Source: Trypanosoma brucei
Lineage: Eukaryota
Length of the DNA stretch: 64,000 bases
NCBI GenBank assembly: GCA_000002445.1
Contig: AL929603.2
Span: forward strand, 96,001 to 160,000
Reading direction: 5' to 3'
In this document: one piece after another, positions 16,966-52,233 of the stretch
Layout of the letters: every line of letters begins with the position of its first letter
Position numbering within the stretch: position 1 is the first letter of the stretch
Position numbers and translations under genes: made by a program
The notes under the pieces: model-generated
Told to the model about the DNA's origin: nothing
The model's input: only the letters and a program-made list of their open reading frames with translations
The model's database searches: none

Positions 16966-16971
16966 TGCTGA

Positions 16972-23420: not shown

Positions 23421-23435
23421 TATATATATATATAT
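23421..23435. repeat. (TA)n microsatellite (also 24191..24207; mirrored at about 42076..42097 and 41318..41335)
   Basis: Seen in the sequence. Confidence 0.9.
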
Positions 23436-26517: not shown

Positions 26518-27674
26518 CCCTGGCGATGCCGGCCACCTCAACGTGGTGCCAGGGTCCAGTACCCCGTATCATCGGGGGAAGCCAAGAGCCAGCAGAGTTC
26601 CTTTCATGGGGAACACTGCTGTGCTCCGGCTACGGCATCATACAGCACAGGGATCAGCAGCGTCTTGCTGGGACACCGTTTTTCATTTGTCGGTCCCTGG
26701 GCACGTGCCAGCGTGCCATCAGCAGTATCATCCGCACTAAGATGCTGCTGTCCGGTGATGTGGAAGAGAATCCCGGCCCGTCGTTGCGCGGGATGCAGTG
26801 GAACTGCGCCGGGCTATCTCAAGGAAAGAGATTAGCACTCCACAAAACCCTTGTTGATGAGCGGATCGCCTTTTGTCTGTTGAGCGAGACAAGGATGACG
26901 CCTGGAGAGGCGGCTTGCTTTAGCGTTGCTGGCTACCAACATCACGGAATAGCTCGTAACTGCAAAGGAGGTGGTGTATCAATACTAGTGAGGGAGGACC
27001 TACCAGTCGAGACCGGTATGGCCGTTGTTGGTCGCATTGAAAAAGTGCATGCAACAATTCACCTTGCACGTGGAACGGCGCTGACTGTCACGTCGGCATA
27101 CATCCCACCAGAACACACCTTCACGGCAACTGACCTAGATACGCTTCTGACGACTGACGGTGCCCAGCTCATCGGTGCAGACGCTAACGCACACGCGTTG
27201 GCATGGGATCGCGCGAGCCCGCCAAATACCAAGGGTGAAACCCTCACACAGTGGTGCATTGACAACCAGTTTCTGGTATGCAACACTGGTGAGTGCACCA
27301 GGTACGCGCGCCACTACGGGGAGTCCACCCCTGATGTGACACTGTCAAGGAATTGCACAGTGTACACGTGGACATCGCTGTATTCTCCCGATAGCGATCA
27401 CCATCACATATTTTTCGACGTTATCGTTGGAGACGACACAGGTGCACTGAGTTGCCCGCGGCTTCAAAAGCCCATGTACGCATGGCTAAAAGCTAACTGG
27501 AGGAATTTCCGTCTCAAGGTTGACGAGCTCTGCAGGAAAATTGGTAGAGAGAAGAATGTCAACACCCTGGAACAGAAATTGAGCTCCGCCATCCGCATTG
27601 GACACCTGAGCTCGCGAAACTCGATGAAGAGAGCGCTGGATGCGGACCCTCCCACCGAAGGGAAAAGTTGGTAG
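26388..27674 (+). CDS. Chimeric reading frame in which the RHS P-loop remnant is fused in frame to the ingi N-terminal APE-like endonuclease region
   Basis: The translation reads ...SLAIGSLLLHTL|AMPATSTWCQGPVP...QWNCAGLSQGKRLALHKTLVDERIAFCLLSETR.... The endonuclease part belongs to the element. The first 130 nt are RHS-derived. Confidence 0.7.
   Translation: MERKLCAWPAEETRILRHAPNPYIVIGNSRISKSLAIGSLLLHTLAMPATSTWCQGPVPRIIGGSQEPAEFLSWGTLLCSGYGIIQHRDQQRLAGTPFFICRSLGTCQRAISSIIRTKMLLSGDVEENPGPSLRGMQWNCAGLSQGKRLALHKTLVDERIAFCLLSETRMTPGEAACFSVAGYQHHGIARNCKGGGVSILVREDLPVETGMAVVGRIEKVHATIHLARGTALTVTSAYIPPEHTFTATDLDTLLTTDGAQLIGADANAHALAWDRASPPNTKGETLTQWCIDNQFLVCNTGECTRYARHYGESTPDVTLSRNCTVYTWTSLYSPDSDHHHIFFDVIVGDDTGALSCPRLQKPMYAWLKANWRNFRLKVDELCRKIGREKNVNTLEQKLSSAIRIGHLSSRNSMKRALDADPPTEGKSW
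26506..26517 (+). repeat. Target-site duplication TTCTCCTTCACA (5' copy)
   Basis: The identical 12-mer recurs at 31724..31735 immediately after the ingi poly(A). Confidence 0.85.
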
Positions 27675-29695
27675 CCACGCGTAAGCAGATCCTGGACCGT
27701 ACCCCAAAGAAGAGATGGAGCACGCTATGCTCCAGACTTGCGGTGTCAGACCGCTGCAGTTGGCACATTGTCAAGAAGGTATATGCGCCACGACCACTAA
27801 CCACACCGGCTGTACTTGTTGATAACGCGGCCATCACGGACTACTGTCAAGCTGAGAGGTTCAGTAAACTGTACTCGTCCCGCGCAAGAAGGCACCCCGA
27901 CTCACACCCACCGGCACCAATAAAGACGATAGCGAGTGAGTTCAGTCCCATCACGATGGCTGAACTACGGAGATCGATCAAACTGCTACCGAGTGGATCC
28001 GCAGCCGGACCTGATTGCTTATACAACGAGGCACTGCAACATCTCGGTAGAACAGCGCTGAATGTTGTTCTGAGGCTATTCAATGAGAGCCTACGAACGG
28101 GAGTCGTGCCGCCTGCATGGAAGACTGGTGTTATCATCCCCATCCTGAAGGCCGGAAAAAAGGCGGAGGACCTCGATTCTTACAGGCCTGTGACGCTCAC
28201 GAGCTGTCTCTGCAAAGTCATGGAGCGCATAATTGCCGCGAGACTTAGAGACACTGTTGAGTCCCAGCTGACGCCGCAGCAATCAGGCTTTCGCCCCGGA
28301 TGCTCAACGCTCGAACAACTCCTGCACGTCCGCGCTGCCCTCTGCCGTCCCACGCACCAATCTCGTACGGGTGCTGTATTCGTTGACTACGAGAAGGCAT
28401 TTGATACAGTAGACCACGACAAAATTGCGAGGGAAATGCACAGAATGAAGGTATCATCCCACATTGTGAAGTGGTGCGTATCATTTCTGAGTAACCGAAC
28501 TGGCAGAGTGAGATTCAAGGAGAAACTCTCCAGAAGCAGAACATTTGAGCGAGGAGTGCCACAAGGAACTGTCCTTGGCCCAATCATGTTCATTATTGTC
28601 ATGAACTCGTTGAGCCAACGCCTTGCAGAGGTGCCGTTACTGCAGCACGGATTCTTTGCAGACGACCTAACGCTACTTGCGAGGCACACAGAGAGGGATG
28701 CCATCAACCACACACTACAGTGCGGTCTAAACGTGGTGTTACAGTGGTCAAAAGAGTACTTCATGTCTGTCAACGTAGCGAAAACAAAGTGCACACTCTT
28801 CGGGTGTATAGAGCGCCACCCCCTTACGTTGCAACTGGACGGCGAAAGAATAGGAGCTGACAGGACACCGAAGCTTCTAGGAGTAACATTCCAGTGTCTG
28901 CAAGGGATGGCAACACATGCGGCCGAAACGAGACGCAAGATGGACTTCCGACTACTGCAGATAGCAGCCATCTCAGCTTCTACATGGGGGCCAAGACGAC
29001 AAGTACTGAGAACTTTTTATCTAGCACTCGTACAGGCACACACCATGTATGGCATTGAGGTATGGTACTGGGACGCTTCGGAACGAAGTCGCGACCTCCT
29101 TGCATCAGCACAACACAAAGCCAGTCGCATCATAGCCGGCATACCGCATGGGACGCGCAAAGAGGACTCTCTGCTGGAAGCAAACCTCCTGCCACTCAAG
29201 ACGGCCACTCTTGTGCGCAGCATGAAATTCATGCTGATGTGTGAGTCACGAGGCGGATGTTTGCGGCGCAGTGCTGAAGAAGTATACCACAGCAAACACC
29301 CAGTCAGAGTCTTACATTCCCGCATCATGCGGTCCTACCCCCACCTCCGCATTGAGCCACGCGAGCACCCACTAGAGACATCGACGCTCCGCCACAGCTG
29401 CCGACCGATATTTCACACGCAGATAAAGCCTGTGTGCGCTGATGACCCTGACGATGTCAAAAGGGAGGCTTCCGAAAAGTGGATTGAACGACATTTTGCA
29501 CGGAGGGGGAAGGAGCCACCGCGGCGAGAGCACTACGAATTGTGGACTGATGGATCCGTGTCCCTCGGTGAGAAGACCGGGGCAGCTGCCCTGCTCTATA
29601 GAAACAACACGCTGATTTGTGCACCAAAGACCGGAGCAGGGGAACTCTCATGCAGTTACAGAGCGGAATGCGTAGCATTAGAGATAGGACTGTAA
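27668..29695 (+). CDS. ingi reverse transcriptase / RNase H ORF fragment (675 aa)
   Basis: RT motifs are present (...YRPVTLTSCLCKVMERII..., FADD). An RNase H-like C-terminal end is present. The start is offset by -1 from the upstream ORF. Confidence 0.85.
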   Translation: MVATRKQILDRTPKKRWSTLCSRLAVSDRCSWHIVKKVYAPRPLTTPAVLVDNAAITDYCQAERFSKLYSSRARRHPDSHPPAPIKTIASEFSPITMAELRRSIKLLPSGSAAGPDCLYNEALQHLGRTALNVVLRLFNESLRTGVVPPAWKTGVIIPILKAGKKAEDLDSYRPVTLTSCLCKVMERIIAARLRDTVESQLTPQQSGFRPGCSTLEQLLHVRAALCRPTHQSRTGAVFVDYEKAFDTVDHDKIAREMHRMKVSSHIVKWCVSFLSNRTGRVRFKEKLSRSRTFERGVPQGTVLGPIMFIIVMNSLSQRLAEVPLLQHGFFADDLTLLARHTERDAINHTLQCGLNVVLQWSKEYFMSVNVAKTKCTLFGCIERHPLTLQLDGERIGADRTPKLLGVTFQCLQGMATHAAETRRKMDFRLLQIAAISASTWGPRRQVLRTFYLALVQAHTMYGIEVWYWDASERSRDLLASAQHKASRIIAGIPHGTRKEDSLLEANLLPLKTATLVRSMKFMLMCESRGGCLRRSAEEVYHSKHPVRVLHSRIMRSYPHLRIEPREHPLETSTLRHSCRPIFHTQIKPVCADDPDDVKREASEKWIERHFARRGKEPPRREHYELWTDGSVSLGEKTGAAALLYRNNTLICAPKTGAGELSCSYRAECVALEIGL

Positions 29696-29740
29696 CGGCT
29701 GCTGAAATGGCTTCCGGCTTACAGAAGCACACCGAGCAGG

Positions 29741-31084
29741 TTGTCCATCTTCTCTGACTCGCTGTCAATGTTAACAGCACTGCAGGCAGGTCCACTAGCC
29801 GTAACGGACCCAATTCTGAGACGACTATGGAGGCTTCTGCTTCAAGTTCAGAGAAGGAAGGTGCGTATCCTAATTCAATTTATGTTCGGTCATTGTGATA
29901 TGAAACGGAATGAGGTTTGTGATGAAATGGCTAAAAAGGCCGCAGATTTACCACAGTTGCGAGACACATGGATCCCCGACATCATTGCTTATGCGAAGCG
30001 AGTGCTTAGGTCGGAAGAAGTCCATGAGAACACTCATAGGTTTGGTATCACTGGCAACCACTTTTCAACAAAATATAAAGAAGAACTGACGAGGGAAGAA
30101 GAAACGGCACTGGCACGCTTTCGGGTTGGGTCTTCAAGACACTATGGATGGATGTTGCGAAAGATCAACCCGAGTGTGCCTCCACAGTGCCGATGGTGCA
30201 ACCCGCAACATGCAGCGATAGGGCCAACAATACAAAAGGCCCCAACTGTTGCGACACGCACTCTTCAGAGAACCTCCGAACCGACCAAATGTACGGAATG
30301 TGATGCCACATACCAATGCCGCTCGAGTGCTGTAACGCATATGGTAAACAAACATGGCTTTGTGCGAGCTGATGCCCTCCGGAGGATCAAATACGGCGAT
30401 GCAACACCCGCAGTGGATATCCCCCCGGAGCCCCCTCCAGTGGTGGCGATCGTTCCCCTACCATCGAGCACACGAGTCCCGATGAGACCGCAGGTGCTTC
30501 ATTGTACCATCTGTGCCTCCAAATTCGCAGTGCCAGGCCGACTATTACACCACCTTAGAACAATACATGGCATAGGCAGCGGTAGTTTCCGCGTGAAAAG
30601 GGGGCGAGAGAACGAAGACTCATTGCAAGGAGATGGTAGCGCTCCAGCAGCGCCAGCCTCTCAGGATACACGGAAGCTGCCGTTTCAATGTGACCTGTGC
30701 GAGGCGAGCTTCGGTACACGTTCTTCCCTGACACTACACAAAAAATTCAAACATAAAAGCATAGTGACGGAGGACGGTACCGTGGTGTTAGTGCAATTCC
30801 CTCGTAAGCGTGCCCGTGAGGGAAACGTTGACGTCCCGGGGAAGGGCGAGGTGCAGTGTGGTGTGTGTGCCAAAAAGTGCTCAGTTGCAGGGACTCCCTC
30901 ATCCGACACTGTAAGGCTTTCCACAAAGGTGAGGAAGTCGAGCTTAAATGCAGCAAAAGCACAAAATTGTGTGCCACTGATTCCCCCCGTACAAACACAT
31001 CCATGTTGGTGTGCCCGACATGCGGAAGGCAGTGTGCTAGCAAAACTGGCCTCACCCTACATCAAAAGAAGATGCACGGTATGA
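29741..31084 (+). CDS. ingi C-terminal ORF fragment with multiple C2H2 zinc fingers
   Basis: The fingers read CTECDATYQCRSSAVTHMVNKHG, CTICASKFAVPGRLLHHLRTIHG, CDLCEASFGTRSSLTLHKKFKHK and CPTCGRQCASKTGLTLHQKKMHG. The frame continues as 30856..31452 after a frameshift. Confidence 0.8.
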   Translation: MSIFSDSLSMLTALQAGPLAVTDPILRRLWRLLLQVQRRKVRILIQFMFGHCDMKRNEVCDEMAKKAADLPQLRDTWIPDIIAYAKRVLRSEEVHENTHRFGITGNHFSTKYKEELTREEETALARFRVGSSRHYGWMLRKINPSVPPQCRWCNPQHAAIGPTIQKAPTVATRTLQRTSEPTKCTECDATYQCRSSAVTHMVNKHGFVRADALRRIKYGDATPAVDIPPEPPPVVAIVPLPSSTRVPMRPQVLHCTICASKFAVPGRLLHHLRTIHGIGSGSFRVKRGRENEDSLQGDGSAPAAPASQDTRKLPFQCDLCEASFGTRSSLTLHKKFKHKSIVTEDGTVVLVQFPRKRAREGNVDVPGKGEVQCGVCAKKCSVAGTPSSDTVRLSTKVRKSSLNAAKAQNCVPLIPPVQTHPCWCARHAEGSVLAKLASPYIKRRCTV

Positions 31085-31723
31085 AGGTAGAGCGCGCTGT
31101 AACCAGCCAACGCGGCGACTGCGAAGAAACGTCGCTGCACTTGATGAGCTGTCCCGGTTTGAAGAAGTTACGTGTCAGGTTTGCGGTAGAAGGTGAGTGT
31201 GTGCGGGATGTATGCTTCTCCAAAAGGCTGGCGCAATTTCTCATTGCGGTTGAACGGAGCCGGCCGCAGGTGAAGTCCTCACCTAAGGTAACAGTCATAC
31301 AACCCACTCTTCCTTCTGCAACTTCCCCCCTTATTGCCGAGTGTGGAGCTAGCAGGAAAAGCACCGGACGCAGGAATAGTCCAGACACCCTCAGAGACAG
31401 AGGAGGTATGCAGTCAACAAGCAACAGAAACAGAAAGAGGGGGAGAGAATAATAAACGAATAACAAAAATCAAAACAAAAGGATTGCCAATTGACATCTT
31501 TTGGAGAGTCCAGGGTGGGAGGCTTCTCGCCCCATCTGCTGTATTCCGTTCATATGCGGAAATACAACAAAAATTATAGAGAGTGTGTTAGGATGAATGA
31601 AAAAGGGAGACTCTGCCACAGTCGCCAGACCGATAGCATTTCAGGGCTCTACGGTGATGGCTGATGGCCGCGCCAGTGGGGGGAAACTCCCACGAAGGCA
31701 CGAAGAAAATTCAAAAAAAAAAA

Positions 31724-31800
31724 TTCTCCTTCACAAACTAAAGCATGATGCCAGAGTATTGCCTGTTACCGCATATTTTATAGGAGGTCATGCATGCATA
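31724..31800 (+). pseudogene. RHS: TSD (3' copy) followed by RHS continuation after the ingi
   Basis: TTCTCCTTCACA is followed by LLHKLKHDARVLPVTAYFIGG. Intact RHS reads LYKLLHYDAEELPVVAYFRG at this point. Confidence 0.75.
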
Positions 31801-32410
31801 TATATATGTATATGTATATATGTCTGTGTTGTATCTTGGAACGTTGCGCCCATATGGCAAATGGATTGGAAGACTGCTGCTGCATAAATTCATCAACCTT
31901 GGTCGCATCTATCGTACAGGAGATTCCGAAACGTATGTGTGCACGCTGCACTTTGAATCCGCATTGAGGGTGGTAACTTTCCAGTCGCGCAGAGACGTTG
32001 CACGACAACATTGTGTGAGGAGAGTCACTCATATACAGATCAGTTTTGTCTTGTGTTTTGAAGGTGATGCCGCAAGTGCTTTCGATTTTCCCAGGGTATT
32101 ATTTCCTTTTATTGACATGATAGGGTCATTGCCCGCAACCGCGGAGTGGAAACAGGAAACGATGCAGGATGTCAGCGTGTTGAACCGCCTGAGCGATATT
32201 TTCCTGAACTTCAGTAAAGCACAGCGCCTTCCAAATATCCATGAGGGAACAATCAACTCTCCACACACCATGCAACTTTACGGGTTCCCACCCATTTTCC
32301 CACTATTTGATACCTTGTTTGTTGTGGATTGCGACACAACCACCGAAGTTGAAAATCAACGAAAAATAAACGGTGGTGATGTTGCAATTCCAAACTGCTG
32401 GATCACATGA
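31790..32410 (+). CDS. Conserved 206-aa ORF, 100% identical in both arms (mirror at 37784..38404 -); possibly a remnant of an RHS 3' region
   Basis: Similarity to the RHS C-terminal region is weak (TYVCTLHFESALRVV versus TYVCVAHSESIKKRI). The ORF begins inside the (TATATG)n tract, so a genuine start is doubtful. Confidence 0.25.
   Translation: MHAYIYVYVYMSVLYLGTLRPYGKWIGRLLLHKFINLGRIYRTGDSETYVCTLHFESALRVVTFQSRRDVARQHCVRRVTHIQISFVLCFEGDAASAFDFPRVLFPFIDMIGSLPATAEWKQETMQDVSVLNRLSDIFLNFSKAQRLPNIHEGTINSPHTMQLYGFPPIFPLFDTLFVVDCDTTTEVENQRKINGGDVAIPNCWIT
31795..31830. repeat. (TATATG/TATG)n microsatellite at the RHS remnant junction (mirror at about 38375..38410)
   Basis: catatatatatgtatatgtatatatgtctgtg seen in the sequence. 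Confidence 0.85.
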
Positions 32411-34248
32411 TAACAAAACAGGAACAGCCCTTAATATGCTCGAGAATCCTGTCCTTCTAACATGTGATGCGAATAGGGATATGTTTTTGGGAAATTTTAT
32501 GAATGAATTTGGGTGGGGAGTTATTTGTGCTCAGCATGTTGCCGTCAGAAAGATGAGACGCCAACAATTGTGCAACGATACAGCGGGCAAATGAAGTGAG
32601 GAAGATCGCAAATATGTTCATTTATTTTGGGCCAACAGTATGAAACATTACCTTGTGCAATTTAATGTTAATACCGTCGCTATGTTAGCTATTGAAAATA
32701 TTGCGGGGAGGGGAAGTAACCGACATGGATGTAAATCATGAAAGAGCGGCTGTGGGAAATCAATAAAAGAGAGGAAGGAGAAGAGTAAACGGGGAAAACA
32801 TCAACAAAAGAGTGTGGAAACAAATAATCACGGCAGGTGATGTCACGGTATAACTCTGTGTTAGGAGGGTTGTGGACTCTATCAAAATTAACCTCTCGGC
32901 AGTAAGCACAGTTAACAACGAGCGTATGATCCCTTTTTAAAATTTGGTTACTTTAATTCGTTTTTTTTTATTACTTAACGATGTTAACATTAGATACGAT
33001 ATGCATTTTTTGTAGAAGCACATATGTGTTAATGAAAACATTGCAACATTGTTTACATCAGATATTAATACTTAGCTGCCTAACCGTAATTTCCTACAGA
33101 GCGTGTCGTTTACGGTTTTCATTTCTACCAGATGGATGTCACATATTGTGTTTAATATTTTACACTGAGTGATGTGTCCGAAATATTTTTTTTTCTTAAT
33201 CGTCGACGCCCCTTTCACCTTTTCATGTATTCTCCTAATTTTTCTCTACCATTTGTTACTTAAGGTGCGCACAGATACGAATGTATGAAGGTTTCTGTGC
33301 AAGAAGCCGAGGTGTCCAGTTCACTATTTATTTGATGGAAAGTCATTATTTTGAGTGTGCGATTCGTTGTACATCCACTGGCTACCGGCACAGCGTATGT
33401 TATCACTTGCCCTATCTTTCATATGATTACTCTAAAATGATTAGAGTTCAGCGGTATGAAAAGTGTAATAATACCCGAGAAGTGCAGTTCCAACTGTTGA
33501 TGGGTAATATTTATGTTTGATTGTCAGGTGGTGATTTACTAACATGAAGTATGCAGTTTATTATGATAGGCTGAGAAGGAGGGGAATGATGATGCGTTGA
33601 AGGACGTGAGGTAACTGATAGTATTATTATTATTATTGTTTTTTTTTGTTAACTGATGTATTCCATAACATTGAGGATGCAGTGGGACTTAGGGGTGAAG
33701 CACTTTGGGAACTGTATTTGTGTTTGCATGGATGAGCTTGAGCCAATAGAACCCGCTGTCGCGTATCAACAAGAGTGGAAATTAGTGGAACAGTTTTTGT
33801 ATGTTTCTTTGTATTGTGGTGAGCTTTCGTTGATTTCCCTCTTAACTTTCGTTGTTTATTGATTTTTGTTATTTGTTGTTTCATTCATTTTGGATCGTCA
33901 GAAATGTGAGGGTGCAATGTGTTTGTTTTTGGTTTTTTTCACACCGCCCACAGTTGGGATTGGTGATGCATGAAATTCATTATTTTTATATTTGGCATAT
34001 GATAACAAGGCAAGGGAAATATTTATACAGCTGCCGTATTTTGGAATTGTTTTCCTTAATACCAAATAAGGTATAATACCGTATAACACAAACAATAGTG
34101 AATAAATATTATCTCGCTTTATTACTTTTGTTATTATATTAAACTATTCGCACACTGTTATTTTCCTCATCGGTTATTTTACTTCAGTTATTTATATTTT
34201 CAGAGAAGTAAAGGAAAGGGAAGTTAAATTAAGTTAATAATAAAATGT

Positions 34249-35074
34249 ATGCCGAGAGCCAACAATCCTGCAGCTCCACGTGGAAACGATGCAAATCAAC
34301 AAGTGGCAGGTAATATTGAAGCAGCCATGAGGAGACCACGGGATGAAAATGTACCGCCTCCTCCTCCTCCTGCTGCTGCTGCTGCTCAGCCTCCACAAAT
34401 ACGGCAGAGAACTGAAGAGAGGCCCAATTGGACAATGAATAGTAAGGTGAGGGATGTGCTGCTGGAAGATGTGCCGCTGCAACGGTATGAGGTTCTGCGT
34501 AAAATGACACTGCATGATTTATGGAGTGGCAGAAACGGAAAATGTGAGGATTCCCATGTTTGTTGAAAATCCGGGAGAATATATTACGAACGCAAGAATT
34601 CTACATGACATACAGAATCTCCACAAGTTCAGACAGTACAAAAAGATTTGTGAGCGGTTGCCTGAAGTAGAAGGAAATCTCCTCTCTACCTTAATGGGAA
34701 GGGAAATTTACTACCTCAGTCAGTGGGAGGAGAAGGGAAGAGGGGAAATAAGGGAATTTGTTGGTCCCGTGGCGAGGGGAAGGTTGGATGGAGCACTGGA
34801 GGTCGCCAAAGAAGCAAGGAAACGAGCTGCCCAACCAGCCTGTGGTGCTGTCGAACTTAAAGGAGTGTATGATTCTATATACAATGCGAAATGGAGTTAT
34901 GTGATGCCGGGTTATGATGAAGAGCCACTTGGAATGAAAGTGTTTAATGGAAAACCGCAGCGCATTTGGACCGAAGCGGAGGTGGATATAACTCCTGAAC
35001 CTGCGAATGTTGATGCAGAGATTAAGAAGGGATCCAATGGTTTAGAGATTTTTGTTCTCACTTCGGAGAAGGTG
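34249..35074 (+). pseudogene. RHS: RHS gene 5' portion (about 275 codons, one frameshift near 34560), truncated at the palindrome centre after ...LEIFVLTSEKV
   Basis: The translation reads MPRANNPAAPRGNDANQQVAGNIEAAMRRPRDENVPPPPPPAAAAAQPPQIRQRTEE...GRGEIREFVGPVARGRLDGALEVAKEARKRA...GVYDSIYNAKWSYVMPGYDEEPLGMKVFNGKPQRIWTEAEVDITPEPANVDA. The 5' flank at 34150..34248 matches the flank of the RHS at 3081..3150 on the other strand. Confidence 0.85.
34356..34386. repeat. (CCT)n(GCT)n trinucleotide repeat encoding the Pro/Ala run in the RHS N-terminus; its length is polymorphic between copies
   Basis: The runs are PPPPPPAAAAAQ here, PPAAAAAAQ in the mirror copy (about 35800) and PPPPAAAAAQ in the copy at 2052..3080. 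Confidence 0.85.
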
Positions 35075-35139
35075 ATTTGCGCCCCGTACCGCTATGTGAA
35101 GCAGGAGTTCGAGCTTTGAATAGTGTTACGCCCCCCGCC
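35075..35139. other. Non-palindromic central spacer of the inverted repeat (~65 bp)
   Basis: The left arm ends at ...CACTTCGGAGAAGGT (35074). The right arm starts at ACCTTCTCCGAAGTG (35140). The intervening GATTTGCGCCCCGTACCGCTATGTGAAGCAGGAGTTCGAGCTTTGAATAGTGTTACGCCCCCCGCCA is not self-complementary. Confidence 0.8.
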
Positions 35140-35944
35140 AACCTTCTCCGAAGTGAGAACAAAAATCTCCAAACCATTGGGTCTCTCCGGCACTCGTGCA
35201 TCAACATTCGCAGGTTCAGGAGTTATATCCACCTCCGCTTCGGTCCAAATGCGCTGCGGTTTTCCATTAAACACTTTCATTCCAAGTGGCTCTTCATCAT
35301 AACCCGGCATCACATAACTCCATTTCGCATTGTATATAGAATCATACACTCCTTTAAGTTCGACAGCACCACAGGCTGGTTGGGCAGCTCGTTTCCTTGC
35401 TTCTTTGGCGACCTCCAGTGCTCCATCCAACCTTCCCCTCGCCACGGGACCAACAAATTCCCTTATTTCCCCTCTTCCCTTCTCCTCCCACTGACTGAGG
35501 TAGTAAATTTCCCTTCCCATTAAGGTAGAGAGGAGATTTCCTTCTACTTCAGGCAACCGCTCACAAATCTTTTTGTACTGTCTGAACTTGTGGAGATTCT
35601 GTATGTCATGTAGAATTCTTGCGTTCGTAATATATTCTCCCGGATTTTCAACAAACATGGGAATCCTCACATTTTCCGTTTCTGCCACTCCATAAATCAT
35701 GCAGTGTCATTTTACGCAGAACCTCATACCGTTGCAGCGGCACATCCCTCGCCTTACTATTCATCGTCCAGTTGGGCCCCTCTTCAGTTCTCTGCCGTAT
35801 TTGTGGAGGCTGAGCAGCAGCAGCAGCAGCAGGAGGCGGTACATTTTCATCCCGTGGTCTCCTCATGGCTGCTTCAATATTACCTGCCACTTGTTGATTT
35901 GCATCGTTTCCACGTGGAGCTGCAGGATTGTTGGCTCTCGGCAT
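35140..35944 (-). pseudogene. RHS: Mirror copy of the truncated RHS 5' portion (tail-to-tail with 34249..35074)
   Basis: The ORFs 35092..35700 (-) and 35648..35944 (-) are near-identical to 34514..35119 and 34249..34566. The differences are one 15-bp indel, the (CCT/GCT)n length and a small indel near ...ANVDA(RVPERPNGLEIF). Confidence 0.85.
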
Positions 35945-38458
35945 ACATTTTATTATTAACTTAATTTAACTTCCCTTTCCTTTACTTCTCTGAAAATATA
36001 AATAACTGAAGTAAAATAACCGATGAGGAAAATAACAGTGTGCGAATAGTTTAATATAATAACAAAAGTAATAAAGCGAGATAATATTTATTCACTATTG
36101 TTTGTGTTATACGGTATTATACCTTATTTGGTATTAAGGAAAACAATTCCAAAATACGGCAGCTGTATAAATATTTCCCTTGCCTTGTTATCATATGCCA
36201 AATATAAAAATAATGAATTTCATGCATCACCAATCCCAACTGTGGGCGGTGTGAAAAAAACCAAAAACAAACACATTGCACCCTCACATTTCTGACGATC
36301 CAAAATGAATGAAACAACAAATAACAAAAATCAATAAACAACGAAAGTTAAGAGGGAAATCAACGAAAGCTCACCACAATACAAAGAAACATACAAAAAC
36401 TGTTCCACTAATTTCCACTCTTGTTGATACGCGACAGCGGGTTCTATTGGCTCAAGCTCATCCATGCAAACACAAATACAGTTCCCAAAGTGCTTCACCC
36501 CTAAGTCCCACTGCATCCTCAATGTTATGGAATACATCAGTTAACAAAAAAAAAACAATAATAATAATAATACTATCAGTTACCTCACGTCCTTCAACGC
36601 ATCATCATTCCCCTCCTTCTCAGCCTATCATAATAAACTGCATACTTCATGTTAGTAAATCACCACCTGACAATCAAACATAAATATTACCCATCAACAG
36701 TTGGAACTGCACTTCTCGGGTATTATTACACTTTTCATACCGCTGAACTCTAATCATTTTAGAGTAATCATATGAAAGATAGGGCAAGTGATAACATACG
36801 CTGTGCCGGTAGCCAGTGGATGTACAACGAATCGCACACTCAAAATAATGACTTTCCATCAAATAAATAGTGAACTGGACACCTCGGCTTCTTGCACAGA
36901 AACCTTCATACATTCGTATCTGTGCGCACCTTAAGTAACAAATGGTAGAGAAAAATTAGGAGAATACATGAAAAGGTGAAAGGGGCGTCGACGATTAAGA
37001 AAAAAAAATATTTCGGACACATCACTCAGTGTAAAATATTAAACACAATATGTGACATCCATCTGGTAGAAATGAAAACCGTAAACGACACGCTCTGTAG
37101 GAAATTACGGTTAGGCAGCTAAGTATTAATATCTGATGTAAACAATGTTGCAATGTTTTCATTAACACATATGTGCTTCTACAAAAAATGCATATCGTAT
37201 CTAATGTTAACATCGTTAAGTAATAAAAAAAAACGAATTAAAGTAACCAAATTTTAAAAAGGGATCATACGCTCGTTGTTAACTGTGCTTACTGCCGAGA
37301 GGTTAATTTTGATAGAGTCCACAACCCTCCTAACACAGAGTTATACCGTGACATCACCTGCCGTGATTATTTGTTTCCACACTCTTTTGTTGATGTTTTC
37401 CCCGTTTACTCTTCTCCTTCCTCTCTTTTATTGATTTCCCACAGCCGCTCTTTCATGATTTACATCCATGTCGGTTACTTCCCCTCCCCGCAATATTTTC
37501 AATAGCTAACATAGCGACGGTATTAACATTAAATTGCACAAGGTAATGTTTCATACTGTTGGCCCAAAATAAATGAACATATTTGCGATCTTCCTCACTT
37601 CATTTGCCCGCTGTATCGTTGCACAATTGTTGGCGTCTCATCTTTCTGACGGCAACATGCTGAGCACAAATAACTCCCCACCCAAATTCATTCATAAAAT
37701 TTCTCAAAAACATATCCCTATTCGCATCACATGTTAGAAGGACAGGATTCTCGAGCATATTAAGGGCTGTTCCTGTTTTGTTATCATGTGATCCAGCAGT
37801 TTGGAATTGCAACATCACCACCGTTTATTTTTCGTTGATTTTCAACTTCGGTGGTTGTGTCGCAATCCACAACAAACAAGGTATCAAATAGTGGGAAAAT
37901 GGGTGGGAACCCGTAAAGTTGCATGGTGTGTGGAGAGTTGATTGTTCCCTCATGGATATTTGGAAGGCGCTGTGCTTTACTGAAGTTCAGGAAAATATCG
38001 CTCAGGCGGTTCAACACGCTGACATCCTGCATCGTTTCCTGTTTCCACTCCGCGGTTGCGGGCAATGACCCTATCATGTCAATAAAAGGAAATAATACCC
38101 TGGGAAAATCGAAAGCACTTGCGGCATCACCTTCAAAACACAAGACAAAACTGATCTGTATATGAGTGACTCTCCTCACACAATGTTGTCGTGCAACGTC
38201 TCTGCGCGACTGGAAAGTTACCACCCTCAATGCGGATTCAAAGTGCAGCGTGCACACATACGTTTCGGAATCTCCTGTACGATAGATGCGACCAAGGTTG
38301 ATGAATTTATGCAGCAGCAGTCTTCCAATCCATTTGCCATATGGGCGCAACGTTCCAAGATACAACACAGACATATATACATATACATATATATATGCAT
38401 GCATGACCTCCTATAAAATATGCGGTAACAGGCAATACTCTGGCATCATGCTTTAGTT

Positions 38459-38470
38459 TGTGAAGGAGAA
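38459..38470 (-). repeat. TSD TGTGAAGGAGAA (reverse complement of TTCTCCTTCACA) flanking the RIME; second copy at 38972..38983
   Basis: Seen in the sequence. It is identical to the left-arm TSD. Confidence 0.85.
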
Positions 38471-38971
38471 TTTTTTTTGAATTTTCTTCGTGCCTTCGTG
38501 GGAGTTTCCCCCCACTGGCGCGGCCATCAGCCATCACCGTAGAGCCCTGAAATGCTATCGGTCTGGCGACTGTGGCAGAGTCTCCCTTTTTCATTCATCC
38601 TAACACACTCTCTATAATTTTTGTTGTATTTCCGCATATGAACGGAATACAGCAGATGGGGCGAGAAGCCTCCCACCCTGGACTCTCCCAAAGATGCCAA
38701 TTGGCAATCCTTTTTTTTTGGAGTTCCACATCACCGGACAGCAGCATCTTAGTGCGGATGATACTGCTGATGGCACGCTGGCACGTGCCCAGGGACCGAC
38801 AAATGAAAAACGGTGTCCCAGCAAGACGCTGCTGATCCCTGTACTGTATGATGCCGTAGCCGGAGCACAGCAGTGTTCCCCATGAAAGGAACGCTGCTGG
38901 CTCTTGGCTTCCCCCGATGATACGGGGTACTGGACCCTGGCACCACGTTGAGGTGGCCGGCATCGCCAGGG
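38471..38971 (-). mobile_element. RIME (ribosomal mobile element, 501 bp: ingi 5' half joined to ingi 3' half) at the position that is paralogous to the left-arm ingi
   Basis: The 5' half is CCCTGGCGATGCCGG...GATGTGGAA. It joins directly to the 3' half ...GGATTGCCAATTGGCATCTTTGGGAGAGTCCAGGGTGGGAGGCTTCTCGCC...A8. The ORF 38612..39025 reads across the junction as ...CCCPVMWN|SKKKGLPIGIFGRVQGGRLLAPSAVFRSYAEIQQKL. Confidence 0.9.
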
Positions 38972-38983
38972 TGTGAAGGAGAA

Positions 38984-39459
38984 GTGAGCCGATGGCCAGT
39001 GACTTACTGATTCTGGAGTTTCCAATCACAATGTAAGGATTTGGTGCGTGTCTTAGTATTCGAGTTTCCTCAGCTGGCCAAGCGCAGAGCTTTCTTTCCA
39101 CAACATTTCACAGTCTCCAGTCCTTTCTCTGAATGAGAATGTCATTGTGAATTTAAATATTAAACTGTGAGTACGACCACTCCATTTAAGATGTTGGAAC
39201 CGTTGCTTCACCTCCTTCCCGTGCGTTCCGGCTTATGTTCAAAAGTTTCCTCAATTTTGGGGACGACATTAACTTCTTCATCTTTCCACATTATATCATC
39301 AGCACGCGTTCCATCAACAAACTTCATGCCCAGCATTTGAGTTCCATTGTCCATTATAATGTCACTCCACTTTGAATTGCATACGGAGCCATATAAACTG
39401 AAAACATTATCACCTCTTGCTTCACGTCCTCTCAGACGCTTTTCTCCCAGAATAAGTGT
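38984..39459 (-). pseudogene. RHS: RHS gene 5' portion (mirror of 26030..26517), upstream of the RIME
   Basis: The ORF 38595..39101 (-) begins with the RHS-derived MERKLCAWPAEETRILRHAPNPYIVIGNSRISKSLAIGSLLLHTL before entering the RIME. Confidence 0.75.
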
Positions 39460-42400
39460 CTGGTGTCCTGAAGCAAAATGTTGAGTATTGTTCTTGATTA
39501 AAATATTTGCTTTACTTTTCTAACTAATTCGGCTTCTTAGTGTTTCCTTTTAAAGGATACAAAAGCTTTATCGCAAAGGGATTCCTATACTAAAGGACGC
39601 ACATGGTTACTCAGATAGAACAGTTATAAATCTCAAATAAAGTTCAGTAACCTTTCCTTACACATTTTTTTATCCAATGAAAATATTTCCACAGTGCTCT
39701 ACTGCAGCATTGTGGCCATTAAAAAAATAGTTTTGGCGCTGCCTCAGGTATTCACTGGCATTTCCCCTCTTTTCAACGCATGTTTACAAGCAGAGGCATG
39801 CCTCATTGCTGTCACACCTTAGCGTTATTGAATCTATTTTCATACCTCCAAGGACCATACAGCATGAGATTCTATTTTCAAATACATTAATTGATCCACG
39901 AGATTTGGTATTTTATTCATTTCATCTGACTGTTGGTTTTCCTCATTCTCTGAGTTCGCAAACACCACTGAGCTAATTCCGCGCAAATGTACACATGTAA
40001 CTTCAAGGTAATATATGTTTATCACTGTTGTATTCTTTCGTATTTCTTTTGTTGGCTGCTGGTGCCCAGTAAGTTCCTATCATAAAATATGTATCATCTT
40101 ACAAGACACAGCAATAATGGTCATGATAAAGTTTCTGAATTCCCTGTATTTAATGTTGGACGCTGGTGTGAGGAATGGATTCAAAAACAAACAAACAAAT
40201 AAACAAACTGAAGCCTCCTGTTCGTAAATGAAGAGTTTGTGTTCACATCGTTGGAGAGTGTCGGCACCAGGAGATATACTTTTCTCGCTTTGCAGTGTGT
40301 GTTTCACTACAGTTTCCGTTCGTTCCGCCATATGGGAAAATAAATTGTTTTGGATATTTGAGTCTGCGCCGCCTTCCCCACTCAAAGCACCTTGCATAAT
40401 GAGTATTATTGTAGTAAATTTTGAGTTCTCATGAGGATTTCACACTTCACACGCGCAAAAAAAAATTGTTACAATGACTCGATTACTGTTGCACACATGG
40501 AAATGGTGGCTGCGATAGAAGCTTCCCTTAATTTGTGTCATTTTCGTGAGAGTTGAGTTTTAAGCAACATTGTGCCTCCTAAACCTCGATACGCATTTTA
40601 AAAAAATGAGATTAAAAAAAAGACTCACTATTTGATACAAAATGTAAGGGAACTTGGCATTTAATAATAATTATTATTATTGAACACACATTCATATGTT
40701 AATTTTTTTCCATCACCGTTAGGAACGTAATCATCACAATTTAAAGAACCACCAATACGCAAATATTTCCATACGCCACTTGACTGTCTTCGAAGCGCTG
40801 CCCAATTGGTTTTGAATGTAAGTGCAATACAAAAGAACAAAAACATTTGAGAGAAAGAATTCAGTAATAAAAAATATGGTTAAAGTTCCCCATCACCTTT
40901 CTGAAACCTTTTGAACTTTGCGCATCTGCACGCTCAAGGCAAATCAAAGTTTCTCTAACCATTGATGTTTACATTATTTCCAATCGACCATGTTTCTTGA
41001 AACAGATGTTGGAAAGAAAATACAAATAGTGATGGATGAAAACCTGAATATTAATACTGACAATAATAATGGTAATAATAATGGTAATAAAAAATAAATA
41101 GATTAATTAATTAAATTACATTCCTTCAGTGCATTGCACTTATGCAGGGATTATGACTCGTACAAACCTGTCTCATAGTTATTTATGAATTCATGACAAA
41201 CAACTCGGTAATGATGCGCCATGAAATGTTTAATCAACGAATCTTACATTCCACGTATAATACGATGCAAACCGAACAAACATCAGTCACAAAAGCGATT
41301 TGTTTAAAAATGATATATATATATATATATTTTTTTTTTTTGCGAGCGTGTAGAAGCAAATAAATATAACACTGTGCGCAGAGGATGAAGGGTACAAACA
41401 AATGAAACAACGATAAAAAAATTATTTACAAGATTAAAAGAAAGTGCCGTTTGAATAAAGAGAAATTAAACAAGAGGTGGTGACAAATCGTATGCTTTTA
41501 ATATACTTACTGCAGATATTTAGTTTGTAACGATTAGTATTATATAAACAGCAACACATGTGATGAAACTCAGGAATATATCAACTAAACCTCAGATTGT
41601 TCGACAGACAAGCAAAAAAAAAAAAGAAAAGAAGAATAATATGAAAAAAAAAACATCTGGTGTTAATGTCGCACAACATATTTCAACAGTTGATTCACAC
41701 TACAAATTTCCTATAAACATACGATTTAAATCACCACCTGCACATTCCCTTCCGCGTATCGTTGTTTTGACTTCAAACAGCTTACAAGTATAATTTGCTG
41801 ATGCCATCTTTACATAATAAAATGAAACTATTAAAGTTTATCACAGTCCGCAAATTACGGGTTTTAGGTTGCAGTCGTCGGTTGTTCTTCCCTCTGCATA
41901 ATGGTCTCTCATTAACATACAAATATCTCTCAACAAAAATATTCACATTAGAGAGATTAGGTGATGAATGATTTGAGTCAACTCCTTCCACTTGTAACTT
42001 CATCACGGCATGGTTGCGGCTCACAACAGAAGGAAGGGTGTTTTTACTCTTAGGTTGAATGATACCTGCAGTTCCAACATAATTCGATATATATATATAT
42101 ATATATATTCTTTATTTCTACTTTCTGCACTTCTCCACTTTCGTGTTGTCCATACAACAAATATCTCTTTACCCGATGGTGAATGAGATGTGGTGTGCTG
42201 TTTAGAAACTGAACTACATTTTTAGCTGAGAGTGGAAAAGCTGAAAAAGTGTTTTGGTTTGAAGAGTGAGTCAGTTGAAGCATTCAGCATTTGATTAACT
42301 CATAAAACATATAATTTATATTTAACCTTCCAATACCATCGCTCGAACAGAGCAGTTTCTTGTCATAAAGACATTAACCACATGCTAAAATTTTCCACGC

Positions 42401-44213
42401 CACCAAACCACACTTATATAAACTCGAAAAAATAAATAATAAATAAGCGGTTGCATATATCATACCACTTCTTGCAATGTAAACCGAAAATAGTGCGTCG
42501 CGGGAGTGAGCTTGAAATTAGTAAACGAAAAGATTCCTGTATCATAAAAGTCTTTCACTATTTCATGAAGTATTTCAATCTCCAACTAAACATCATGCAA
42601 AACACCTTAAAGCCACTCCACTTTCCAATATATAAAAATCCCACCAATGTTACTTTCATGTGCCATCGCAGTGCATCCTCATGCTTTCAATTTCAGTAGT
42701 TATTCACTTCCCAAGTTCCGTAAGCATTTACTGCTAATAATGTAAGCGAAACAATTTTGGAATATGATATTCAAGTGACAGTTGTTCTTCGATTTCACAT
42801 GCATCTCCCTTCAGATGCAGCGCTGCTTTTCGTCTCTTTTTTTTTTCTCAAATAAATAAATAACATTTGATATTTTACTATTTCGAATCGGTGTGGATTT
42901 GTATAACTTAAATGTGCGGCTGTCTGTAACTTATCAGTTAGCAGCAGTGTCTAATTAATTTAAGTGTGTGAGGAGGAAATCCTTTTGTTGTTGTTGTCAA
43001 ATAAAAAGTAAATTTGAAGAAATACATAATTTACCTCAGCAGTGTTTTCTGGAAAGTCATAAACATATACGGATACGGTAAGAAAAGGAAAATAAAATGA
43101 ATGAAAGGATTTGCTCTCGCCTTCAGTTCTTCTGAGGCATCATGTTGTAAGAAAGAAAATAATATTTCCCAAAACCAGTGAAATGGTTAATACACTTTCC
43201 CATGCACATGTATCACAAATGTTAATGGGTTAATGTGGTACACAACCCTTTGCTGTGCAAGGGAATTCGGATTGTATGACATCTTCACAAAAGTTTGGCC
43301 CAAATAATTCTGAAAGGAAATGTAATAAAATAAATTATGTTATTAAAAAACCAAACAAATACAACAAGTTATAATATAATATTTTAATGAAACGAGAATA
43401 TTCAATCGCACTGTTTGAGAATATAGATATACCAGTGGCAAGTGTAAAAAAGAATCATGAGACACGTAATGTGTTGTTTTATCCTCTTCCATGTAAGAAC
43501 TTGGTGGTCAAGATGCTGCTCTGATATAATTTATTGTAAAGTCACTCTGTCATTTCTTTCAGTAAAACAAATAATAATAAGAATAATGAAATATATTCAC
43601 TATACTTTAATGGTATATAAACTTCACTTCCTCATATCATTGACAGGCATACAGTACTGCAGAATGTTGAGTGCTTTTACTTTTCGGGTGTGGTTATGAG
43701 TAAAAATTAAATGTGAATGTTGTGTTTCATGTAATAACAATAAGAACGATAGAAATAGTAATAATATTAATTCAATATATATGTGTGAATGTGTAGTCAT
43801 AAAGTTAGAAGGGCATACAATATAATGATATATTCATTTGGTATGGTTGTAATATGAATGATCATAATACAATAATTACTACGCTTACAACTAAAATACA
43901 AATTTCCATTGAGAAAAAAGCTTGTCACATATACACACACGCTCACCTTCCTAACTGTTCTTTATTCTTCACAATATATGATGGGTATAACTTAGTAAAA
44001 TACGAAGCACTTAAATAACCGTAATGAAATCCTTGTATTTCTCGTATTTAAGATAGTGTAACATACAATACCATCCATGTGAATTGTTACTGGTATCTGT
44101 CCGAATAATGGTGTCTACAGTGAGCAAACTACTCGAACGGGCTGTTAAATTTAATAACGTGTTCTTAGCAATAAGTGGTTACAATTATACAAAGTGAAGC
44201 AATGGGTCACATA

Positions 44214-52208: not shown

Positions 52209-52233
52209 GGTGGGGATGGGGGCGGGGCGGGTG
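52209..52233. promoter_or_regulatory. Mirror copy of the GC-box-like island (GGTGGGGATGGGGGCGGGGCGGGTG)
   Basis: This is the right-arm counterpart of 7003..7026. Its G-rich strand is oriented toward the rightward RHS array. Confidence 0.2.

What the first reader, a model, noticed from the sequence alone, without database searches (positions are those of the whole stretch)
34249..35944. Palindrome centre lies inside an RHS gene: two RHS 5' halves fused tail-to-tail across a 65-bp unique spacer
The arms meet at ...LEIFVLTSEKV, about 75 codons upstream of the RHS P-loop, which is the ingi hot spot. This produces convergent RHS fragments with no terminator or other gene between them. The 65-bp spacer (35075..35139) is not self-complementary and does not match the expected RHS continuation (GWP(Y/F)...). 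It may be filler from the founding rearrangement. In trypanosomatids convergent strand-switch regions are transcription-termination zones. Here one is created de novo by a palindrome. The spacer may help keep the structure stable against hairpin extrusion.
Basis: partly seen in the sequence, partly recalled or inferred. Interest (0 to 1): 0.5.

Follow-up and report, generated by a model that had tools for sequence, protein, structure and literature searches.

The report
Giant palindrome centred on RHS pseudogenes
Two truncated copies of a trypanosome RHS pseudogene do meet tail-to-tail across a short unique spacer at the centre of a roughly 20-30 kb inverted repeat on Trypanosoma brucei chromosome 1, but this looks like a layered by-product of recombination in a known unstable repeat region, not a new kind of element.

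Summary
The arms are complementary up to 35073/35141. Between them lie 67 nt (35074-35140) that occur nowhere else I could search and are not the RHS continuation. The window is T. b. brucei TREU927 chromosome 1, in its RHS/LRRP/ingi region.

The centre belongs to a much larger palindrome, 4520-35073 against 35141-54711. Both RHS fragments share a frameshift, so they were already pseudogenes. They stop about 57 codons before the P-loop and about 72 before the ingi hot spot.

The palindrome did not form in one step:
- The outer arms are old paralogues: 4-9% diverged, LRRP dS 0.086, and the left arm groups with its T. b. equiperdum orthologue.
- The inner arms were homogenised recently in the TREU927 lineage. 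Positions 31503-34248 differ at one base plus two homopolymer indels.
- Later patchy conversion from other RHS copies marks the RHS pieces.

The T. b. equiperdum assembly lacks the centre; an ingi-bounded junction replaces it. The spacer has weak dyad symmetry on almost the same axis as the arms (p about 0.006), which I cannot explain.

Termination, base J/H3.V and siRNA output could not be tested here. Verdict: real in the reference sequence, a new member of a known kind, modest interest.

The parts
4520..35073 (+). Left arm of the large palindrome. It holds two blocks absent from the right arm: 9879-16152 and the internal 4.7 kb of an ingi element.
   Evidence: Self-BLAST gives 4520-9878 vs 54711-49364 at 92.9%, 16153-25636 vs 49380-39894 at 95.4%, and 25637-26765 vs 39854-38724 at 98.2%. 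The inner part is covered.
35141..54711 (-). Right arm of the large palindrome.
35074..35140 (.). Central spacer of 67 nt. The non-RHS core is about 35074-35136. It contains a weak internal dyad: CGTACCGCTATGTGAAGC / loop AGGAGTTCGA / GCTTTGAATAGTGTTACG.
   Evidence: Unique in the window. Absent from 82 kb of T. b. equiperdum chr 1 (for L001-L003; for the L005 region beyond the ingi), and from E. coli genomes, plasmids, bacterial genomes and metagenomes. Not RHS-like. Dyad symmetry 16/31, p = 0.006.
34249..35073 (+). RHS pseudogene fragment B, left copy. It runs from the N-terminus to ...LEIFVLTSEK and is frameshifted near 34505-34566.
   Evidence: ORFs and translation. Pfam RHS_N positions 1-69/127 plus DUF7578. 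Closest relatives are P0079 and P0080, which continue GWPYNRF.../GWPYTSC....
35137..35944 (-). RHS pseudogene fragment B, right copy. It has the same frameshift and keeps 5 more RHS nucleotides (TTGGC) than the left copy.
35018..35044 (+). Patch of 11 substitutions between the arms (mirror position 35170-35196). The left version resembles the RHS copies in L002/L003; the right version resembles the window copy at 56047.
   Evidence: Difference list and family alignment. I read this as ectopic gene conversion from other RHS copies.
31503..34248 (+). Near-identical inner arm segment (mirror about 35945-38689). It differs by 1 substitution and 2 homopolymer indels in 2.7 kb. It contains the 3' half of RHS pseudogene A (about 31829-32711).
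   Evidence: tblastn with RHS5a.
26518..31723 (+). Full-length ingi (5206 bp) inserted at the hot spot of RHS pseudogene A in the left arm. The 12-bp target duplication TTCTCCTTCACA lies at 26506-26517 and 31724-31735.
   Evidence: Pfam endonuclease and RT domains; element ends and target duplication.
38471..38971 (-). RIME (501 bp) at the mirror-image site in the right arm, with the identical 12-bp target duplication at 38459-38470 and 38972-38983.
16972..21318 (+). LRRP gene, left arm (XP_846398), intact at 1448 aa.
   Evidence: Pfam LRR families; exact match to the TREU927 chr 1 protein.
44214..48560 (-). LRRP gene, right arm (XP_846402), intact at 1448 aa. It is 91% identical in amino acids to the left copy with no indels; dN/dS 0.58, dS 0.086.
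9879..16152 (+). Block found only in the left arm, carrying adenylate cyclase (GRESAG4-like) pseudogene fragments. It is present in the T. b. equiperdum orthologue (L001) and absent from the right arm and from the paralogue L003.

Best explanation
The locus is a real but layered inverted repeat in the polymorphic RHS/LRRP/ingi region of T. b. brucei TREU927 chromosome 1.

Two paralogous modules already lay in inverted orientation. Each module runs LRRP, then RHS pseudogene A carrying a retroelement in its hot spot, then RHS pseudogene B. Later, in the lineage leading to TREU927, a break in or next to RHS pseudogene B was repaired using the inverted paralogue as template. The route could have been fold-back or break-induced copying, or arm-to-arm gene conversion. 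This repair removed whatever lay between the modules. It made the inner roughly 3.6 kb nearly identical (99.96% outside the RHS piece), with raised identity out to about 12 kb. It left a junction of about 62-67 nt of non-RHS sequence. After that, other RHS copies converted short patches inside the two RHS fragments.

Shown: the anatomy, the layering and the non-RHS nature of the spacer.

Inferred: the repair route, and the consequences. The centre is a convergent strand-switch point. Read-through transcription would make a long hairpin RNA able to feed the RNAi pathway. The spacer would lower, but not abolish, hairpin or cruciform formation.

I see no evidence that the structure is selected for a function.
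For: Identity of the locus: exact protein matches, in order, to XP_846398, XP_846399, XP_846400, XP_846401, XP_846402 and XP_846406 of TREU927 chr 1.

Anatomy.

Layering:
- Arm identity is 88-98% in the outer windows and rises to 98.4-99.8% in most windows from about 23.1 kb inward (two patches at about 96.5%).
- 31503-34248 has one substitution in 2.7 kb.
- In 16.1-23.1 kb the left arm groups with the T. b. equiperdum orthologue (146 of the 156 sites for this split; 8 and 14 for the alternatives in that interval). In 23.1-26.3 kb the two TREU927 arms group together (22 against 10 sites).
- The equiperdum orthologue differs from both arms by 1.26% over 31716-33379, where the arms differ from each other by 0.06%.

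Signs of real evolution, not an assembly fold-back:
- ingi in one arm and RIME in the other, with the same 12-bp target duplication.
- A 6.3-kb block in the left arm only, shared with the equiperdum orthologue.
- Two intact, diverged LRRP ORFs.
- Clustered differences inside the RHS pieces that match different family members.

Spacer not RHS.
Against: - The junction rests on one reference assembly. The only other assembly I could reach (T. b. equiperdum GCA_003543875.1) lacks the centre and the right arm at this position, so there is no independent confirmation.
- The source of the spacer is unknown.
- Its near-coaxial dyad symmetry, and the non-complementary 10 nt on each side of that dyad, are not predicted by simple filler.
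- The ingi/RIME difference lies inside the homogenised zone. It needs a separate event or separate conversion tracts.
- No transcription, chromatin or small-RNA data were mapped to these coordinates.
Confidence: 0.55

Rival explanations
1. A single founding fold-back duplication. One break in an RHS gene, followed by hairpin priming and copying of the whole left arm, created the entire 20-30 kb palindrome and the strand switch at once. All later differences are decay. This is essentially the first reader's view.
For: The palindrome is continuous from the centre outward. A short non-palindromic centre is typical of palindromes primed by short inverted repeats. The spacer has a weak dyad almost on the arm axis.
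Against: Arm divergence is very uneven, from 0.04% to 12% per 500 nt. In the outer 7 kb the left arm is far closer to its T. b. equiperdum orthologue (0.1-2.6%) than to the right arm (2.2-8.9%), with informative sites 156:30:17 overall. The outer right arm therefore predates the strain split, while the inner arms postdate it. The right arm lacks a 6.3-kb block that the left arm and its orthologue share.
Confidence: 0.15
2. An assembly or cloning artefact at the centre. The two inverted paralogous modules are real, but the exact junction arose in E. coli clones or in assembly. Under this reading the symmetric truncation and the 67-nt spacer do not exist in the parasite; long palindromes are unstable in E. 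coli.
For: The centre is seen in one reference only. The T. b. equiperdum assembly has no counterpart. Tschudi et al. 2012 (PMC3447711) aligned each chromosome with itself and listed seven long inverted repeats, none on chromosome 1.
Against: The spacer matches no E. coli genome, plasmid or bacterial genome. Deletion in a clone removes sequence and does not add 62 nt of foreign sequence. The RHS pieces next to the centre carry arm-specific patches that match other RHS copies, which is biological variation. The whole window matches the reference chromosome's annotated proteins exactly and in order.
Confidence: 0.1
3. A selected hairpin-RNA locus. The near-perfect inner arms are maintained because read-through transcripts fold into a roughly 3.6-kb hairpin. 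Dicer would cut this hairpin into siRNAs against RHS and RIME/ingi, as at the known T. brucei long inverted repeats.
For: The inner arms are 99.5-99.96% identical next to 4-9% diverged outer arms. Known T. brucei inverted repeats have essentially identical arms and all yield siRNAs (PMC3447711). RHS genes and pseudogenes are major siRNA targets (PMC3683921). Three convergent regions at 120-204 kb on chromosome 1 carry 3258-6441 RPM of small RNA, against single- to double-digit RPM at most of the other sites (PMC4721609 S2 Table).
Against: Recent conversion explains the identity without selection. I could not place the window on the chromosome coordinates of those tables. The high counts there may simply be multi-mapping ingi/RIME reads. 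This locus is not among the published inverted-repeat loci. T. b. equiperdum does without it.
Confidence: 0.15

Closest known systems
Long inverted repeats of T. brucei that produce siRNAs (IR1-IR7 of Tschudi et al. 2012, PMC3447711)
   Same: Kilobase-scale inverted repeats in megabase chromosomes, with essentially identical arms. The inner arms here are about 3.6 kb at 99.5% identity.
   Different: This locus is not in that list, which has none on chromosome 1. Where the listed coordinate ranges can be compared with the repeat lengths, they imply kilobase-scale gaps between the arms (about 2.6 kb for IR3); here the gap is 67 nt. The near-identical part here sits inside a much larger, older and diverged palindrome. 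siRNA output was not tested.
RHS pseudogenes disrupted at the retroelement hot spot (Bringaud et al. 2002, as summarised in PMC7563717)
   Same: Same gene family and the same genomic neighbourhood. Three such hot-spot insertions are present in this window: ingi at 1-2051 (-), ingi at 26518-31723 (+), and RIME at 38471-38971 (-). Each sits 6-9 codons after the P-loop.
   Different: The central fragments are not cut at the hot spot. They are cut about 72 codons upstream, inside the RHS_N domain, and they are joined to each other and not to a retroelement.
Large palindromes formed from a break next to a short inverted repeat (yeast, Tetrahymena rDNA, mammalian gene amplification; Leishmania linear amplicons needing MRE11, PMC4256157). 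The non-Leishmania examples are from my own knowledge.
   Same: Long arms, a short non-palindromic centre, and a weak short dyad at the centre on almost the same axis as the arms.
   Different: The arms are not of one age. About 10 non-complementary nt lie between the central dyad and each arm. The structure is chromosome-internal and not a terminal or extrachromosomal amplicon.
Primate Y-chromosome palindromes kept similar by arm-to-arm gene conversion (my own knowledge)
   Same: Arm identity is far higher than expected from the age of the duplication, which suggests ongoing intrachromosomal conversion.
   Different: Homogenisation here is confined to the inner part, and the spacer is tens of nucleotides and not kilobases.

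Membership tests
RHS (retrotransposon hot spot) gene family | RHS_N domain (Pfam PF20445) | tested here: met
   The 201-aa ORF 34514-35119 matches at E = 1.1e-20, but only over profile positions 1-69 of 127. DUF7578 also matches.
RHS (retrotransposon hot spot) gene family | P-loop domain (Pfam PF07999) and subfamily-specific C-terminal region | tested here: not met
   Absent from both central fragments. Relatives stop aligning at residues 184-187. The fragments are therefore truncated pseudogenes and not genes.
RHS pseudogene disrupted at the hot spot | ingi or RIME inserted a few codons after the P-loop, with a 12-bp target duplication | tested here: not met
   The central fragments end about 57 codons before the P-loop. 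The feature is met by the neighbouring pseudogene A in each arm.
Large palindrome from a single fold-back event | Inverted arms meeting at a short non-palindromic centre | tested here: met
Large palindrome from a single fold-back event | Arms of uniform age | tested here: not met
   The identity profile and four-sequence comparison with T. b. equiperdum show old outer arms and young inner arms.
Large palindrome from a single fold-back event | Short inverted repeat at the centre that could prime the fold-back | tested here: inconclusive
   16 of 31 positions are complementary on an axis 0.5 nt from the arm axis, p = 0.006. However, folding energy is not significant (z = -1.4), and 10 unpaired nt separate the dyad from each arm.
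T. brucei siRNA-producing long inverted repeats | Near-identical kilobase-scale arms | tested here: met
   Over 31503-35073 against the mirror arm there are 17 substitutions and 4 indel events in about 3.57 kb.
T. brucei siRNA-producing long inverted repeats | AGO1-bound, Dicer-dependent small RNAs from the arms | not testable with these tools
   No read data are available here. The locus is not among the seven published repeats.
Convergent strand-switch region / Pol II termination zone | Genes on both sides point towards the site | tested here: met
   The LRRP, pseudogene A and pseudogene B are on + to the left and on - to the right.
Convergent strand-switch region / Pol II termination zone | Enrichment of H3.V, H4.V and base J; loss of Pol II signal | not testable with these tools
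   PMC4721609 lists convergent regions on chr 1 at 120.6-136.0, 159.6-174.5 and 190.1-204.3 kb. I could not map the window to those coordinates.
Assembly fold-back chimera | Arms identical along their whole length, with no arm-specific insertions | tested here: not met
   There are 4-9% outer divergence, ingi in one arm against RIME in the other, and a 6.3-kb arm-specific block.

The most novel reading that the evidence does not exclude
The inner palindrome is an unlisted hairpin-RNA source. Read-through from either arm would fold into a roughly 3.6-kb perfect stem with a 67-nt loop and supply siRNAs against RHS N-terminal regions and RIME/ingi 3' ends. The sharp step from 4-9% to under 0.1% arm divergence would then reflect centre-outward gene conversion, or selection that keeps the stem perfect. 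The small coaxial dyad in the spacer would be the relic of the short inverted repeat that seeded the structure.
Probability: 0.15. Interest if true: 0.55.

Novelty: new member of a known kind. Interest (0 to 1): 0.3.

Why it matters
It is a clear, datable example of how the RHS/LRRP/ingi region of a trypanosome chromosome is reshaped. Old inverted paralogues were re-homogenised from the centre outward. The junction was cut inside an RHS pseudogene away from the retroelement hot spot. Later patchy conversion came from other family members, and in a sister subspecies an ingi-bounded junction removes the whole structure.

If the centre is transcribed through, it would be a ready-made hairpin against RHS and RIME, families already known to be under RNAi control. 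Otherwise it is an ordinary structural variant in a region long known to be polymorphic.

Tried and rejected
1. Spacer as the RHS continuation: rejected. The evidence is the HMMER alignment ends, a profile of 43 family segments against six frames with shuffles and a positive control, and DNA local alignment. One of ten DNA comparisons gave p = 0.014, which is not significant after multiple testing.

2. Spacer derived from ingi/RIME or anything else in the window: no match of 12 nt or more.

3. Spacer as vector, E. coli or bacterial contamination: no match in E. coli genomes, plasmids, 185,579 bacterial and archaeal genomes, or JGI metagenomes.

4. Known RNA family at or near the centre: Rfam finds nothing in the whole window.

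5. Exact-protein look-ups of seven proteins (five window ORFs plus P0004 and P0015) found no contigs. The route that worked was through cluster members of T. b. equiperdum.

6. Independent confirmation of the centre in T. b. equiperdum failed. Colinearity with the left arm stops at window position 33379. An inverted full-length ingi follows, then unrelated sequence leading to a VSG-like ORF, a 273-aa gene and an RNA polymerase second-largest-subunit gene. There is no target duplication at the far end of that ingi, so it is not a simple insertion.

7. Bringaud 2002, Hall 2003 and Wen 2011 are not held in the library. I could not check whether the palindrome was described in the original chromosome I paper.

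8. Published small-RNA and cSSR tables could not be placed on window coordinates.

9. The bacterial promoter/terminator scan was not used, because it does not apply to trypanosomes.
Full report
**What is there.** The window carries a very large inverted repeat. Self-comparison pairs 4520-9878 with 54711-49364 (92.9%), 16153-25636 with 49380-39894 (95.4%), and 25637-26765 with 39854-38724 (98.2%). The innermost arms are 31716-34380 against 38478-35813 (100% in ungapped pieces) and 34468-35073 against 35746-35141 (98%), with 67 nt between them. The last complementary pair is 35073<->35141. Both halves of the spacer are unique in the window even at 3 mismatches. A 215-nt stretch around the centre folds as single-stranded DNA at -73.7 kcal/mol against -23.7 +/- 3.3 for shuffles.

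**Where it comes from.** ORFs in the window match proteins of T. b. brucei TREU927 chromosome 1 (1,064,672 bp) exactly:
- LRRP XP_846398 at 16972-21318 (+).
- 'Hypothetical, unlikely' XP_846399 at 33633-33884 (-), XP_846400 at 36309-36683 (+) and XP_846401 at 40080-40397 (-).
- LRRP XP_846402 at 44214-48560 (-).
- RHS5a XP_846406 at 60384-62411 (+).

The accession numbers run in the same order as the genes. The window is therefore the RHS/LRRP/ingi region of the reference chromosome.

**The RHS pieces at the centre.** Each arm ends in an RHS 5' fragment, 34249-35073 on + and 35137-35944 on -. Pfam finds DUF7578 and RHS_N, the latter only over profile positions 1-69 of 127, and no P-loop domain. 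Both copies share a frameshift near 34505-34566, so the gene was already dead before the arms became alike.

A search of 1.84 billion representative proteins found 68 RHS relatives. Almost all stop aligning at residues 184-187 of the 201-aa ORF, which is exactly at the arm end. The closest full-length relatives continue ...LTSEK GWPYNRFALDY... and reach the P-loop GTPGIGKS 57 codons later. In RHS5a of this window the distance is 54 codons. The retroelement hot spot lies 6-9 codons after the P-loop, as three insertions in this window show and as PMC7563717 states. The break is therefore about 72 codons upstream of the hot spot, inside RHS_N. It is not at the hot spot.

**The junctions.** RHS family copies read GGAGAAGGGTTGGCCATACA. 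The left arm reads GGAGAAGGT|GATTTGCG. The right arm, read on its own strand, is GGAGAAGGTTGGC|GGGGGGCG. The right copy thus keeps five more RHS nucleotides, which leaves about 62-63 nt of non-RHS sequence.

**The spacer.**
- It is not the RHS continuation. A profile built from 43 family segments scores all six reading frames of the spacer at 14-15 bits, the same as shuffles, against 48 bits for a genuine copy. DNA local alignments to five local copies are not significant.
- It has no match in 82 kb of T. b. equiperdum chromosome 1, E. coli genomes, plasmids, bacterial and archaeal genomes, or JGI metagenomes.
- It is not structureless. 16 of 31 positions are complementary on an axis 0.5 nt from the axis of the arms. 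Shuffles reach this value on the three central axes in 120 of 20,000 trials (p = 0.006) and on any of 41 axes at p = 0.02. Folding energy alone is not significant (z = -1.4).
- The core is CGTACCGCTATGTGAAGC, a 10-nt loop, then GCTTTGAATAGTGTTACG. About 10 non-complementary nucleotides separate it from each arm. I have no full explanation for this. It could be the relic of a short quasi-palindrome that seeded fold-back copying, or snap-back templated filler.

**The palindrome is layered.**
- Between 31503 and 34248 the arms differ by one substitution and two homopolymer indels (99.96%).
- Inside the RHS pieces, differences cluster. There is a 6-bp CCT-repeat indel, five substitutions, a 15-bp deletion between short repeats, and a patch of 11 substitutions at 35018-35044.
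- In that patch the left version resembles RHS copies found in T. b. equiperdum loci L002 and L003. The right version resembles the third RHS copy in the window at 56047. This is the signature of short ectopic conversions from other family members.
- Further out, identity per 500 nt falls to 88-98%.
- The two LRRP genes are both intact over 4344 nt with no indel, but differ at 242 nucleotides (dS 0.086, dN/dS 0.58).

**Comparison with T. b. equiperdum (GCA_003543875.1, CM010672.1).** Loci L001 and L004 are colinear with the left arm from 8049 to 33379. They include the 6.3-kb adenylate-cyclase-pseudogene block at 9879-16152 and the ingi at the same site.

I made a four-way alignment of the left arm, the right arm, this orthologue and a further paralogue (L003):
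- Between 16.1 and 23.1 kb the left arm is 0.1-2.6% from its orthologue but 2.2-8.9% from the right arm.
- Informative sites split 156:30:17 overall in favour of left arm plus orthologue.
- From 23.1 kb inward the two TREU927 arms group with each other (22 sites against 10).
- Over 31716-33379 the orthologue differs from both arms by 1.26%, where the arms differ from each other by 0.06%.

The outer right arm is therefore an old paralogue that predates the split of the two subspecies. The inner arms were made alike after that split.

**Retroelements.** Upstream of the central fragment, each arm holds another RHS pseudogene whose hot spot is occupied. The left arm has a full ingi (26518-31723) and the right arm a RIME (38471-38971). 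Both have the same 12-bp target duplication TTCTCCTTCACA, directly after a degenerate P-loop GNSRISKSLAIGS. The insertion therefore predates the arm homogenisation, and the ingi/RIME difference arose separately.

**No independent confirmation of the centre.** In T. b. equiperdum colinearity ends at window position 33379. A full-length ingi in the opposite orientation follows (record 91843-97070). After it comes sequence unrelated to the window, leading to a VSG-like ORF, a 273-aa gene and an RNA polymerase second-largest-subunit gene. There is no target duplication at the far end of that ingi, so it is a recombinant junction and not a simple insertion. That chromosome record is 97 kb shorter than the TREU927 one. 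The sister subspecies thus lacks the centre and the right arm at this place. This fits a recent origin of the centre, or loss by recombination between ingi copies, or an assembly collapse. It cannot confirm the junction.

**Most likely history.** Two inverted paralogous modules existed first. A break in or next to the distal RHS pseudogene was repaired with the inverted paralogue as template, by fold-back or break-induced copying or by arm-to-arm conversion. This deleted the intervening DNA, homogenised the inner arms and left a short junction insert. Small ectopic RHS conversions followed. I give this 0.55.

The rivals are:
- A one-step founding duplication (0.15), contradicted by the layering.
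- A cloning or assembly artefact limited to the junction (0.10), not excluded.
- A selected hairpin-RNA locus (0.15), which is compatible with the history above.

**Consequences (inferred, not tested).**
- Gene orientation makes the centre a convergent strand-switch point.
- PMC4721609 lists three convergent regions at 120-204 kb of chromosome 1 with 3258-6441 RPM of small RNA, far above most sites. I could not map the window to those coordinates, and ingi/RIME multi-mapping could explain the counts.
- Tschudi et al. list seven long inverted repeats, all siRNA sources, none on chromosome 1. Their convergent units on chromosome 1 lie at 636-642 and 721-736 kb.
- RHS genes and pseudogenes are prominent siRNA targets.
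- Read-through of this centre would give a long perfect hairpin. Whether that happens is open.

**Verdict.** This is a new member of a known kind (long inverted repeats and RHS pseudogene rearrangements in T. brucei), of modest interest.

Noticed in passing
window 26506-31735 and 38459-38983: The same RHS hot-spot site holds a full 5206-bp ingi in the left arm and a 501-bp RIME in the right arm, with an identical 12-bp target duplication (TTCTCCTTCACA). One element type was evidently swapped for the other, or internally deleted, in place.
   Followed up: partly
window 1-2538: A third hot-spot insertion. An ingi on the minus strand (5' end at 2051, running off the window start) sits 9 codons after the P-loop GTPGIGKS of a minus-strand RHS. 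The T. b. equiperdum counterpart (L002) appears to lack this ingi: no ingi 5' sequence is found in L002.
   Followed up: partly
L004 18282-20318; L005 (CM010672.1 84944-97070): T. b. equiperdum has a different inverted repeat at the homologous place. Two full-length ingi elements lie in opposite orientation, separated by 1.67 kb. The second one forms a recombinant junction to the chromosome core (VSG-like ORF, 273-aa gene, RNA polymerase subunit gene). About 97 kb present in TREU927 is missing.
   Followed up: partly
window 16972-21318 and 44214-48560: The two LRRP (ESAG8-like) genes differ at 242 of 4344 nucleotides yet have no indel or stop codon. dN/dS is 0.58, rising to 0.73 in the C-terminal fifth, so both copies seem to be kept as genes under relaxed constraint.
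   Followed up: partly
window 9879-16152: A 6.3-kb block with adenylate cyclase (GRESAG4-like) pseudogene fragments is present in the left arm and in its T. b. equiperdum orthologue. It is absent from the right arm and from the paralogue L003.
   Followed up: partly
window 35085-35131: There is an imperfect dyad inside the spacer, almost coaxial with the 30-kb palindrome (16/31 complementary, p = 0.006). It is flanked on each side by about 10 non-complementary nt rich in C runs (GCGCCCC / GCCCCCCGCC on the same strand).
   Followed up: yes
window 55277-57019: A further RHS pseudogene lies on the plus strand just outside the right arm. It changes reading frame just upstream of the LTSEK-GWP junction (an extra T in the T-run, at ...LEIF|VLTSEK) where the central fragments are cut. 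P0003 from T. b. gambiense is an RHS ORF that ends at ...LTSKMG. This site may be prone to slippage or breakage.
   Followed up: no
window 33633-33884 and 36309-36683: The reference annotation carries two 'hypothetical protein, unlikely' entries (XP_846399 and XP_846400). They are mirror-image copies of the same palindromic ORF and are probably not genes.
   Followed up: partly
window 2387-2922 and 63469-64000: Beyond both arm ends, RHS-related sequence is again in inverted orientation at 79.5% identity. The palindromic arrangement may extend further out at lower identity, or this may only be family similarity.
   Followed up: no
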